A stretch of 39,327 bases of DNA, taken from NCBI GenBank assembly GCA_033696785.1, contig GCA_033696785.1_4550.1; one strand, given 5' to 3'. Origin of the DNA: a phage. This document shows positions 1 to 39,312 of this stretch, one piece after another. Within the stretch, counting starts at the first letter, position 1; each line of letters starts with the position of its first letter. Both the position numbers and the translations under genes were made by a program. The notes under the pieces were generated by a model that did no database searches, was not told where the DNA came from, and was given only the letters and a program-made list of their open reading frames with translations.

Positions 1-40
1 AAAAAAACCCCTCAAGCACCCGAAGGCACCCAAGGGGTTT
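1..40 (-). terminator. T-phi-like late terminator downstream of the capsid gene
   Basis: Minus-strand RNA CCCCUUGGGUGC-CUUCGG-GUGCUUGAGGGG followed by U7; the stem closes only with G-U wobbles on the minus strand. Closely resembles T7 T-phi as recalled. Confidence 0.8.
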
Positions 41-43
41 CAA

Positions 44-198
44 TTAGTTGTTGGACTCAGCCAGTTTAGCGGCCCTGTTCGCAGCACGAGTACGCGCAGC
101 TTTCTGTTGAGGAGTTAGAGTATCCTCTTCAGGTGCAGCCGCTACTGTAGCGACGTTAGGTTGGCTAAAGGTGCTTACGCCGCTGGACTGAAAACCAG
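44..198 (-). CDS. Minor capsid protein 10B C-terminal extension, reached by -1 ribosomal frameshift from 10A
   Basis: Slippery G GTT TTC (plus 190-196) lies 4 codons before the 10A stop. The -1 frame then stays open about 52 codons to a TAA at 44-46, just before the terminator hairpin; the other frame hits TAG almost immediately. Confidence 0.55.
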
Positions 199-1218
199 TG
201 CGCCAGCTGCTTCAGGACGCAGACCACCGTGACCCATAGCGTACTTACCAACAATCAGGTCGCCCTGAGCATCGACGTCACGGTCACGTTCCAGCGCCAA
301 GTCACGCAGTTTAACGGTACCCACAGCAGAACGGTGAGAGAACAGGCCCACAACGTTGTCAAGAGCAACTTTAACATCACCACCAGCGGTAGCTGGGAAG
401 GCGTGCTTCTGACCAGTCGCAATAGTGATACCATCAGCACCACGAGTTTCACCAGCACCGCCCTGAGTCAGGTGTGGAACTTCAACAACCACAAAGCCCA
501 TTACGTTACGGATGTTACCAGTTTCAGGATCAATTAGCGCAGCGTAGTTAGCAGCGTTAGGCATCAGAGCCGCCAGAATAGCGGAGTAGTTGTCCGGAGT
601 GGTGTAGAAGTAACGGTCGCCAGCAGGCACGTAGTTTGAAGTCAGCTTAGCACGTGCGATAGTCAGTTGACCGATGATTGCTTCACCCAGCTTAGCGGGA
701 GTGTCTAGGTCAGCTTTCTTACCAACTTCCAGTACGGAGGCAGTGCCTAGACCAGCAATGTTCTCGTTGGATGCAGCCGGAAGGTTGCACAGGATAGCCG
801 TTTCAGCTAATACCGCACCATCGGCAGCGATAGCCAGAGCTTCACCTAGCTGGTTGGAATACTCGCCAGCCACGTCATAGTGGTTCATAGCGTCTTCAAT
901 ATCGAAAATCATCACATCGGCAGTCAGCAGACCATCAATGGTAATCACTTTCTCGGTATGTTTGATGCCTTTGCGCTTATCGGACAGTCGCTCACCTGGA
1001 GCAAGATACACACCAGAGGTGCGACCCATTACCGGGAACTGAGCAGACTTACCGTTCTGAATGGTACGGACAATATGCTTGTCAGCCGTTACAGAGCGGC
1101 GAGTGAATGCGGTCAGGACTTCACCAGCAAAGACCTTCAGGAACAACGCCAGAGCGTCGGAACTAGATTTGCCTTTACCTTGGTCTGTACCAATTTTCTG
1201 ACCCGGAACGTTTGCCAT
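175..1218 (-). CDS. Major capsid protein (T7 gp10A homolog)
   Basis: 347 aa colinear with T7 10A (FLKVF..GEVLTAF, KVITIDGLLTADV, NVMGF.VVEVPHLT, KYAMGHGGLRPEAAG). Promoter at 1321-1343. Confidence 0.96.
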   Translation of the reverse strand: MANVPGQKIGTDQGKGKSSSDALALFLKVFAGEVLTAFTRRSVTADKHIVRTIQNGKSAQFPVMGRTSGVYLAPGERLSDKRKGIKHTEKVITIDGLLTADVMIFDIEDAMNHYDVAGEYSNQLGEALAIAADGAVLAETAILCNLPAASNENIAGLGTASVLEVGKKADLDTPAKLGEAIIGQLTIARAKLTSNYVPAGDRYFYTTPDNYSAILAALMPNAANYAALIDPETGNIRNVMGFVVVEVPHLTQGGAGETRGADGITIATGQKHAFPATAGGDVKVALDNVVGLFSHRSAVGTVKLRDLALERDRDVDAQGDLIVGKYAMGHGGLRPEAAGALVFSPAA

Positions 1219-38645: not shown

Positions 38646-39211
38646 TAGTCCCTCCCGATGTCAGACATCATGTTGTAGCGACCAGTGTCCATCTCATACT
38701 CCATAACCTGCTGATAGAGTTCTGCTTCCTGCTCACGAAGGTATAGCTCTGACTCTGGGCTACCGAAGAACTTAGCGTTGAACTCACGGCTGGCTTTAGT
38801 GACGATGTAGTCCCTGAAGACCACAGGCATCTCAGAGAATGGTTTCATCTCCACAAGCTCTACCGTGATCGGGTCGGTGAAAGTGGTTGACTGAGTGGAT
38901 AGGTCGTACAGGTATCCACCCATGTTGCTGTAGTAGCTGGTGGCCCCAGCGGTCATTACACGGAGGTATGACGGCAGGAATCGAATCCTATTGTCTTGGA
39001 CATCAGGTGTCAGGACAGCAGCTTCGTTAATGTTAAAGTTCCATCCTTTAGCTTGGACCTGACGATTGACACGATGCAGGATACGTTGAGCATTCGAGAC
39101 GTCAGCGTTACCTTCGTCAAGCTGTAGTACTGCTGGTTCACCGATAGCAGCTAACATATCGTTGATGGCATCTAAGTCATCGTTAGCATTCAGTGGAATG
39201 TATTGAGACAT
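38645..39211 (-). CDS. Tail tubular protein A (T7 gp11 homolog)
   Basis: 188 aa with LAAIGEP, ANA.RIL, GYLYDL.TQST and FRDYIVTKASREFN matching T7 gp11. Confidence 0.95.
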   Translation of the reverse strand: MSQYIPLNANDDLDAINDMLAAIGEPAVLQLDEGNADVSNAQRILHRVNRQVQAKGWNFNINEAAVLTPDVQDNRIRFLPSYLRVMTAGATSYYSNMGGYLYDLSTQSTTFTDPITVELVEMKPFSEMPVVFRDYIVTKASREFNAKFFGSPESELYLREQEAELYQQVMEYEMDTGRYNMMSDIGRD

Positions 39212-39222
39212 AGGTTTACTCC

Positions 39223-39312
39223 TTAACGGTCATATGGGCTAGACGGTGAGCTGGGCAGCAGGTACGCCCAGAATAAGACGAATAGTGCTAACCCTGTGTA
39301 AATAAGGACCAT
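39223..39312 (-). CDS. Small hydrophobic peptide between T-phi and gene 11
   Basis: About 29 aa hand-translated (MVLIYTGLALFVLFWAYLLPSSPSSPYDR) behind a strong RBS (AAGGAGGGACT); its stop sits in the gene 11 RBS. Not in the ORF track. Confidence 0.35.
   Translation of the reverse strand: MVLIYTGLALFVLFWAYLLPSSPSSPYDR

What the first reader, a model, noticed from the sequence alone, without database searches (positions are those of the whole stretch)
44..198. Conserved -1 frameshift site for a 10B-type minor capsid protein
The heptamer G GTT TTC sits four codons before the 10A stop, as at the T7 10A/10B shift site I recall. Only the -1 frame stays open (about 52 codons) and it ends at a TAA directly before the terminator hairpin. 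The geometry fits a programmed shift yielding a longer minor capsid protein.
Basis: partly seen in the sequence, partly recalled or inferred. Interest (0 to 1): 0.45.

Follow-up and report, generated by a model that had tools for sequence, protein, structure and literature searches.

The report
Known T7-type capsid gene frameshift site

Summary
The window is a permuted, reverse-complemented Kayfunavirus (K1F-like) genome. Gene 10A lies on the minus strand (1218..175). The heptamer G_GTT_TTC (196..190) covers Val342-Phe343, four codons before the TAA stop. Only the -1 frame stays open, for 50 sense codons from the heptamer, and it ends at TAA 46..44 at the foot of a strong terminator.

T7 has the same heptamer at the homologous codons. 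The 48-residue tail is homologous to the T7 10B tail (E=4e-11) and 94-96% identical to the K1F tail. The -1 ORF has no start codon. Substitutions against T7 fall mainly on third codon positions. Among 76 related loci, 42 of 45 with a slip motif have a -1 ORF filling a long spacer up to the terminator, against 0 of 31 without a motif.

On their own, the heptamer and the open frame are not beyond chance (open in about 8% of shuffles). K1F g10b (-1 shift, 44 extra triplets) is published and used for capsid display, and a few relatives annotate it. Expression in this phage was not tested. Verdict: already known, low interest.

The parts
175..1218 (-). Gene 10A, major capsid protein (347 aa; stop TAA 177..175)
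   Evidence: ORF list. Pfam Gp10A-like PF21703, E=6.6e-105, residues 60-342. PDB relatives include T7 10A, 2xvr/3j7v.
190..196 (-). Slippery heptamer G_GTT_TTC (Val342-Phe343 of 10A), the -1 shift site
   Evidence: Sequence. Identical to the T7 heptamer at the homologous codons. It is the only copy on the coding strand. Atkins 2016 lists G_GU as the X_XX part of the T7 gene 10 site.
44..190 (-). 10B-specific segment read in the -1 frame: C190 is re-read, then 48 codons (QSSGV...AESNN) and TAA 46..44. The 10B coding sequence is therefore join(1218..190,190..44) on the minus strand.
   Evidence: No ATG/GTG/TTG in this frame. BLASTP against the T7 10B tail gives E=4e-11. tblastn finds the same tail in 81 phage records.
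65..121 (-). Most conserved block of the tail (TLTPQQKAARTRAANRAAK), predicted helix
   Evidence: Peptide alignment of 36 unique tails. Window versus T7 differences by codon position are 4/3/13, and 0/0/6 within AARTRAAN. A single-sequence AlphaFold model gives a helix at tail-peptide residues 29-49, pLDDT 86-90.
149..184 (-). Candidate proximal stem starting 5 nt 3' of the heptamer and spanning the 10A stop (5' arm AGCGGCGU 184..177, 3' arm ACGUCGCU 156..149). Status unproven.
   Evidence: It appears in the 200-nt fold but is not the local MFE structure in 50 nt. In 8 K1F-type sequences 98% of cells pair, with one-sided changes only, and K1F has one mismatch.
1..41 (-). T-phi-type intrinsic terminator: hairpin 41..4 (G+C core 37..8), U-run 7..1. 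It contains CCCC at 37..34, the element reported to influence T7 gene 10 frameshifting.
   Evidence: Fold -25.2 kcal/mol, z=-5.6. Terminator scan. Both arms are shared with T7 T-phi. Review statement on the CCCC element.

Best explanation
This is a programmed -1 ribosomal frameshift site of the T7 gene 10A/10B type.

Most ribosomes translating the capsid mRNA read G_GUU_UUC in frame and stop four codons later, which gives the 347-aa major capsid protein 10A. A minority slip back one base on the U-run: tRNA-Phe re-pairs from UUC to UUU, and the upstream tRNA-Val re-pairs only partly on GGU. These ribosomes then read 48 codons in the -1 frame to the TAA at the foot of the late terminator, which gives a 391-aa (40.8 kDa) minor capsid protein 10B. 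10B co-assembles with 10A and carries a flexible linker plus a short basic helix at its C-terminus.

Shown here: the site, the frames, homology of the tail, absence of a start codon, a coding-type substitution pattern, and the association between slip motif and extension across relatives.

Inferred from T7, K1F and Kvp1: that the shift actually happens, its efficiency (about 10% in T7), and incorporation into virions.

Unknown: the stimulatory elements and the function of the tail.
For: - Identical heptamer at homologous codons in T7, K1F, EcoDS1 and Penshu1.
- Tail homologous to the T7 10B tail: 63% identity over 35 residues, E=4e-11.
- No ATG/GTG/TTG anywhere in the -1 ORF, so it cannot be translated on its own.
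- Window versus T7 in the 19-codon conserved block: 4/3/13 differences at codon positions 1/2/3. In AARTRAAN all 6 differences are at third positions (P=2e-4).
- Pairwise dN/dS is 0.2-0.5 against the divergent tails where dS was computable, with dS above about 0.9; one close pair (L034) gave about 1.5 from only 2 synonymous differences.
- In 76 unique related loci, 42 of 45 with a slip motif have a spacer of at least 130 nt that is open in -1 and closes 30-50 nt before the terminator T-run. None of 31 without a motif do; there the terminator follows the 10A stop at a median of 45 nt (Fisher 3e-18, not corrected for relatedness).
- Several unrelated extension modules and two slip-site chemistries (U_UUC and A_AAG) show the same architecture. 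One locus (L109) has the T7-type tail behind G_GUA_AAG.
- Flanking synonymous sites are well diversified.
- Literature: the K1F -1 shift adds 44 triplets, and g10b::gfp and g10b display phages work (PMC6277420, PMC10367136, PMC13370021). Kvp1 virion mass spectrometry shows a -1 shift at TTTTCA (PMC2579914). T7 10B is about 10% of product (PMC1635266).
- EcoDS1, Penshu1 and CR44b annotate the shift.
Against: - There are no expression data for this phage.
- The heptamer is not a canonical X_XXY_YYZ (G_GUU) and is not enriched in the genome.
- The open frame alone occurs in about 8% of shuffles.
- No proven stimulatory structure: the proximal stem shows only one-sided changes, mean z of downstream folds is only -1.5, and there is no Rfam element.
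- One close relative (vB_EcoP_F, L011) has the tail knocked out of the -1 frame by a 1-nt deletion, so the tail may be dispensable, or that record may hold an error.
- The comparative statistics are not phylogenetically corrected. Part of the tail set was retrieved through the AARTRAAN motif, so that motif's conservation in those loci holds by construction.
Confidence: 0.9

Rival explanations
1. Decaying or neutral relic. The site and tail are inherited from a T7-like ancestor, but 10B no longer matters in this lineage, so the frameshift is incidental low-level slippage without selected function.
For: A close relative (vB_EcoP_F, L011/L097) carries a 1-nt deletion that puts the tail out of the -1 frame. 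L015 has a disrupted module. Many Studiervirinae lack any extension. From my own recollection of Condron 1991, which was not available here, T7 10B is dispensable in the laboratory.
Against: The tail is 90-96% identical in 79 of 81 deposited genomes holding it. Substitutions have a coding-type pattern, and dN/dS is below 1 against the divergent tails. The -1 ORF is intact in 42 of 45 slip-site loci. The slip site was replaced by another slippery motif rather than lost in L109.
Confidence: 0.05
2. Transcriptional slippage. The phage RNA polymerase adds one extra U at the T4 run, producing a subpopulation of mRNAs whose normal translation gives 10B.
For: The site contains a homopolymeric T run, and the product would be indistinguishable at the protein level.
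Against: The run is only four T. By general knowledge, not tested here, productive transcriptional slippage needs runs of about 6-9 or more. Relatives achieve the same architecture with A_AAG sites that have only three A (T3 and the L039-L067 set, L109), which is the classical ribosomal tRNA-Lys slip. The T7 site is treated as ribosomal in the specialist review (PMC5009743).
Confidence: 0.03
3. Chance open frame in a non-coding spacer, or a separately initiated small gene downstream of 10A.
For: An open frame of this length occurs in about 8% of shuffled spacers, and the heptamer count is at chance level.
Against: There is no start codon in the -1 ORF. The tail is homologous to T7 10B. Substitutions have codon-position bias. 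Relatives without a slip motif have no spacer at all, against 42 of 45 with a motif. K1F fusions to the end of this frame decorate virions.
Confidence: 0.02

Closest known systems
Bacteriophage K1F gene 10 / g10b (Kayfunavirus type species)
   Same: Same genus. Same heptamer GGTTTTC with four codons before the stop. Same 44-codon net extension and same terminator geometry. The tail is 45-46 of 48 residues identical. The -1 frameshift is described, and g10b C-terminal fusions (GFP, EGF, Ig-like adhesins) are displayed on virions (PMC6277420, PMC10367136, PMC13370021).
   Different: Two or three tail substitutions: P2S (caused by AGC to AGT, synonymous in 10A), E23D, and D41A relative to NC_007456. 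The window also has a ~100-nt insertion with a small ORF after the terminator. There is no functional difference in the frameshift cassette that I can see.
Bacteriophage T7 gene 10A/10B -1 frameshift (Condron, Atkins and Gesteland 1991; Dunn and Studier 1983)
   Same: Identical heptamer G_GUU_UUC at the homologous Val-Phe. A -1 ORF ending just before T-phi. A homologous tail core, TLTP.Q.AARTRAAN.A.K. A terminator with the same CCCCUUGGG / CUUGAGGGG arms.
   Different: T7 has 3 rather than 4 codons between heptamer and stop. Its tail is 53 rather than 48 residues, with a different linker. The shift site lies about 200 nt from the terminator, against about 155 nt here. 10A is about 78% identical at most. 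The T7 G-run just 3' of its stop (GCUGGGGGUGG) is absent here.
Bacteriophage T3 / phiYeO3-12 gene 10B (Lys-type slip, Ig-like extension)
   Same: A -1 shift a few codons before the 10A stop, giving a C-terminally extended minor capsid protein.
   Different: The slip site is C_CCA_AAG (tRNA-Lys). The extension is an ~86-aa Big_2 Ig-like domain, and the terminator is 196 nt beyond the -1 stop. The window's tail has no Pfam domain.
Kluyvera phage Kvp1 gp10B
   Same: A -1 shift at the Phe U-run (TTTTCA), proven by MS/MS of a virion band (PMC2579914).
   Different: Different genus and a different tail. I did not examine its sequence here.

Membership tests
T7-type gene 10A/10B programmed -1 ribosomal frameshift | Upstream gene is a T7-like major capsid protein (gp10A) | tested here: met
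   Pfam PF21703 Gp10A-like, E=6.6e-105. PDB T7 10A, E=1.6e-147.
T7-type gene 10A/10B programmed -1 ribosomal frameshift | Shift heptamer G_GUU_UUC, in phase, at the conserved C-terminal Val-Phe a few codons before the 10A stop | tested here: met
   Window 196..190, phase confirmed, four codons before the stop. T7 is identical with three codons.
T7-type gene 10A/10B programmed -1 ribosomal frameshift | -1 frame open from the site to a stop just 5' of the late terminator, with no initiation codon of its own | tested here: met
   50 sense codons to TAA 46..44. No ATG/GTG/TTG. Terminator directly after. Same geometry in 42 of 45 slip-site loci.
T7-type gene 10A/10B programmed -1 ribosomal frameshift | Extension homologous to the T7 10B tail and evolving as coding sequence in the -1 frame | tested here: met
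   BLASTP E=4e-11. Codon-position differences 4/3/13, and 0/0/6 in the core motif. dN/dS 0.2-0.5 against the divergent tails.
T7-type gene 10A/10B programmed -1 ribosomal frameshift | Distal 3' stimulator: CCCC in the 5' arm of the terminator | tested here: inconclusive
   CCCC is present at 37..34 in a T-phi-like hairpin. The T7 role is known only from the review. Its function here cannot be tested in silico, and it is part of the terminator stem anyway.
T7-type gene 10A/10B programmed -1 ribosomal frameshift | A longer gp10 species is actually made (about 10% in T7) and is present in virions | not testable with these tools
   Shown for K1F by g10b fusions, for Kvp1 by MS and for T7, but not for this genome.
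Canonical tandem-slippage -1 PRF cassette (X_XXY_YYZ plus 3' hairpin or pseudoknot, dnaX/retroviral type) | Heptamer of the form X_XXY_YYZ allowing both tRNAs to re-pair | tested here: not met
   G_GUU_UUC: only the A-site Phe codon re-pairs fully. X_XX is G_GU, listed as an 'intermediate' case in PMC5009743. Relatives also have A_GUU_UUC and C_GUU_UUC.
Canonical tandem-slippage -1 PRF cassette (X_XXY_YYZ plus 3' hairpin or pseudoknot, dnaX/retroviral type) | Conserved stimulatory stem-loop or pseudoknot 5-9 nt 3' of the heptamer | tested here: inconclusive
   There is a candidate 8-bp stem 5 nt downstream (184..177 with 156..149). 98% of cells pair in 8 K1F-type sequences, but with one-sided changes only and an invariant 3' arm. 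It is not the local MFE structure, and mean z is -1.5 across 36 loci. No equivalent was evident in the folds of loci carrying other modules.
Canonical tandem-slippage -1 PRF cassette (X_XXY_YYZ plus 3' hairpin or pseudoknot, dnaX/retroviral type) | Shine-Dalgarno-like stimulator 6-17 nt 5' of the site (dnaX type) | tested here: not met
   The upstream sequence GAAGCAGCUGGCGCACU has no GGAGG/AGGAG-like element (direct reading).
T3-type 10B (Lys slip plus Ig-like domain) | C_CCA_AAG or xxA_AAG slip site and a Big_2 Ig-like extension | tested here: not met
   The heptamer is the Phe type. The tail has no Big_2 or any other Pfam hit.

The most novel reading that the evidence does not exclude
The most novel reading not excluded has two parts. 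First, in the K1F lineage the shift may be tuned by a local stem that starts 5 nt after the heptamer and spans the 10A stop codon (184..177 with 156..149), rather than, or in addition to, the distal terminator CCCC element reported for T7. Second, the strongly conserved basic helix of the tail (LTPxQKAARTRAANxAxK), shared by Teseptimavirus and Kayfunavirus despite saturated synonymous divergence, may have a specific and still unknown function on the capsid surface, rather than being a dispensable appendage.
Probability: 0.2. Interest if true: 0.35.

Novelty: already known. Interest (0 to 1): 0.1.

Why it matters
It matters mainly for annotation and engineering. Most of the listed deposited genomes with this tail annotate only the 347-aa 10A, and several mislabel 10A as 'minor capsid protein'. 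The correct feature here is join(1218..190,190..44) on the minus strand. The 10B C-terminus is the established display point in T7 and K1F, so the site marks where fusions can be placed in this phage. It does not open a new biological question. The open points are old ones: what the T7-type tail does, and how the T7 distal element stimulates the shift.

Tried and rejected
- The primary T7 papers (PMC209055, PMC328964, PMC5952207) are not held. T7 mechanism details therefore rest on the Atkins 2016 review and on Slootweg 2006.
- The Rfam scan of 1..400 found only two sub-threshold sRNA matches over the terminator and no frameshift element.
- Heptamer enrichment: none, 2 copies against 3.7 expected.
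- Open frame as stand-alone evidence: rejected, because about 8% of shuffles stay open.
- Proximal stem covariation: no two-sided changes, and the shuffle control is uninformative because the 3' arm is invariant. Folding the 50 nt downstream in 36 Phe-slip loci gave a mean z of only -1.5 and no common structure.
- My tabulation of GTT/TTC invariance is circular, because the loci were selected by the heptamer. I use that call only for the diversity of flanking synonymous sites. The non-circular test is extension against motif in the loci selected by 10A homology.
- Conservation of AARTRAAN in loci L086-L158 holds by construction of the search pattern. Those columns were excluded, or only the unbiased window-versus-T7 pair was used.
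- Independent initiation and chance ORF were considered and rejected.

Full report
**What the window is.** The window is a complete, circularly permuted and reverse-complemented genome of a K1F-like phage (genus Kayfunavirus, Studiervirinae). The first 1300 bases match Kayfunavirus BDX03P1 at 99.5% and about 170 other T7-like phages at 90-95%. All large ORFs are on the minus strand. The two window ends are contiguous in a relative: phage Pipis aligns at 96.6% straight across the junction. The window was cut immediately after the T-run of the late terminator.

**Observation.**
- The major capsid gene 10A is on the minus strand at 1218..175 (347 aa). It is a Gp10A-like protein (Pfam PF21703, E=6.6e-105) and matches the solved T7 capsid protein.
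- Read on the minus strand, the gene ends ...GCA CTG GTT TTC AGT CCA GCG GCG TAA.
- After the stop, the +1 frame closes in 3 codons and the 0 frame in 10. The -1 frame runs 44 further codons to TAA 46..44.
- From the GGT of the heptamer there are 50 sense codons.
- A -1 shift after Phe343 would give a 391-aa, 40.8 kDa protein, 4.6 kDa larger than 10A.
- The -1 stop lies a few bases before a 17-bp hairpin followed by seven U (-25.2 kcal/mol, z=-5.6).
- All parts of the observation are therefore confirmed.

**Is it more than chance?** Taken alone, no. The heptamer occurs once per strand against 3.7 expected. A given frame stays open over the spacer in about 8% of dinucleotide shuffles. The case rests on homology and comparison.

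**Homology.**
- T7 (NC_001604) has the identical heptamer at the homologous Val-Phe, three codons before its stop. Its annotated 10B is a joined CDS.
- The window tail aligns with the T7 10B tail at 63% identity over 35 residues, E=4e-11. The shared core is TLTP.Q.AARTRAAN.A.K.
- K1F, EcoDS1 and Penshu1 have the same heptamer, the same four codons and the same 44-codon net extension.
- The tail occurs in 81 deposited phage genomes, 79 of them at 90% identity or more.
- T3 uses a different site (C_CCA_AAG) and an Ig-like extension.

**Coding evidence for the -1 frame.**
- There is no ATG, GTG or TTG in the -1 ORF, so it can only be reached from 10A.
- Between the window and T7 (a pair not selected on the tail), the 19-codon conserved block differs at 4/3/13 sites in codon positions 1/2/3. 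In AARTRAAN all six differences are at third positions (P=2e-4).
- Against the divergent tails where dS was computable, dS is above about 0.9 while dN is 0.4-0.7, giving dN/dS of 0.2-0.5. One close pair (L034) gave about 1.5 from only two synonymous differences, too few to weigh.
- Caveats: the alignment was peptide-guided, and the loci were retrieved through the AARTRAAN pattern. Those columns were therefore excluded or ignored for that set.

**Comparative architecture.**
- I took 78 IMG/VR loci found through 10A homology alone, plus the reference phages.
- I recorded three things for each: slip motifs in phase in the last codons, the -1 ORF, and the first strong terminator.
- Of 45 unique loci with a slip motif (N_GTT_TTY or xxA_AAG), 42 have a spacer of at least 130 nt between the 10A stop and the terminator. 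In these the spacer is open in -1 throughout and closes 30-50 nt before the T-run.
- Of 31 loci without a motif, none does. Their terminator follows the 10A stop directly (median 45 nt) (Fisher 3e-18, not corrected for relatedness).
- The three exceptions are T3 (long 3' UTR), L011 (a 1-nt deletion) and L015 (a disrupted module).
- In this family the terminator thus sits right after the last coding base, and in slip-site genomes that base is the end of the -1 ORF.
- The pattern recurs with several unrelated extension modules and with two slip chemistries. One locus (L109) carries the T7-type tail behind G_GUA_AAG instead of G_GUU_UUC. This argues for selection on slipperiness and for a ribosomal rather than transcriptional mechanism.
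- Flanking synonymous sites are well diversified, so divergence is sufficient for such comparisons.

**Mechanism.**
- The specialist review lists the T7 gene 10 site as an intermediate heptamer in which X_XX is G_GU. It states that a CCCC sequence in the terminator, more than 200 nt 3' of the site, is involved in T7 (PMC5009743).
- The window has the same terminator arms, with CCCC at 37..34. That element is part of the stem in any case, and its role cannot be tested here.
- A candidate local stem starts 5 nt after the heptamer and spans the 10A stop (184..177 with 156..149). It pairs in 98% of cells across eight K1F-type sequences.
- The evidence for that stem is weak: only one-sided changes occur, the 3' arm is invariant, K1F itself has a mismatch, and it is not the local minimum-energy fold. 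I treat it as unproven.
- No Shine-Dalgarno-like element lies upstream, and no Rfam family matches.
- A single-sequence structure prediction of the tail gives an unstructured 28-residue linker followed by a helix over the conserved block (pLDDT 86-90). No solved structure covers the tail.

**What is already known.**
- For K1F, Moller-Olsen et al. 2018 state that gene 10 undergoes a -1 frameshift adding 44 triplets to give the minor capsid protein g10b. They obtained stable fluorescent phage by fusing gfp to the end of g10b (PMC6277420).
- Later work displays EGF and Ig-like adhesins at the same point (PMC10367136, PMC13370021).
- For Kvp1, virion MS/MS proved a -1 shift at TTTTCA (PMC2579914).
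- T7 10B is about 10% of gene 10 product (PMC1635266).
- EcoDS1, Penshu1 and CR44b already annotate the feature.

**Verdict.** The residual doubt is that nothing was measured for this phage. The finding is an ordinary, already described feature. Its practical value is correct annotation, join(1218..190,190..44) on the minus strand, and knowing where capsid display fusions can go. Interest 0.1; novelty: already known.

Noticed in passing
Related loci L007-L085 (region between the 10A slip site and the terminator): The -1 extension is modular across Studiervirinae. Four module types appear: T7-type tails (42-53 codons); an ~88-aa module with no Pfam hit ('..TDWSLL..RRTNSLYFKA..GYDGSPVRSF..', L013, L016-L025, L028/29, L072, L076/77); Big_2 Ig-like domains (T3, L030, the L039-L067 set); and an extension of more than 333 codons that starts with Big_2 and runs off the locus (L044/L056). 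All sit between a slip site and the terminator.
   Followed up: partly
L011 / L097 (Escherichia phage vB_EcoP_F, KY295894; same in vB_EcoP_FFK3): A 1-nt deletion at the 10A stop (TAAG to TAG) puts the otherwise intact T7-type tail into the +1 frame, so a -1 shift would add only 11 codons. This is either a natural 10B knockout or a sequencing error.
   Followed up: partly
L109 (IMGVR_UViG_3300013307_000032): The same T7-type tail (..ELTPAQKAARTRAANKAAKLAAE..) is reached from a Lys-type slip site, G_GTA_AAG (10A ends ..ALVKAAAE), instead of G_GTT_TTC. One slippery motif has been swapped for another. L128, L131 and L156 have A_GTT_TTC or C_GTT_TTC.
   Followed up: partly
window 39223..39312, minus strand: There is a small ORF (MVLIYTGLALFVLFWAYLLPSSPSSPYDR, 29 aa, hydrophobic) with an AAGGAGG ribosome-binding site between the terminator and gene 11 (ATG at 39211). 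An ORF is annotated at this position in Pipis (noted there as a single transmembrane domain) and Penshu1. It is absent from K1F and EcoDS1, which lack about 100 nt here.
   Followed up: partly
window 1 / 39327 junction: The window ends are adjacent in relatives (Pipis aligns at 96.6% across the junction). The sequence is therefore a circularly permuted whole genome, reverse-complemented relative to T7 convention and cut right after the terminator T-run.
   Followed up: yes
GenBank records PV714130 (Pipis) and OM867676 (PRF-SP2; same label on the other PRF/STP/CRW-SP records); PDB 9vvq: The 347-aa 10A form is labelled 'minor capsid protein' in these records, while the real -1 extension is left unannotated.
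   Followed up: no
L015 (IMGVR_UViG_2974604219_000001): The ~88-aa extension module is broken midway. The -1 frame then reads into the small hydrophobic ORF that follows the terminator in other phages, and the terminator call lies inside the -1 ORF. This suggests a deletion or an assembly error.
   Followed up: no
L054, L057 (IMG/VR loci without a slip motif): Two loci lack any slip motif and any long -1 ORF, yet have 83-134 nt between the 10A stop and the first strong terminator, unlike the ~45 nt of the other motif-less loci. Unexplained.
   Followed up: no
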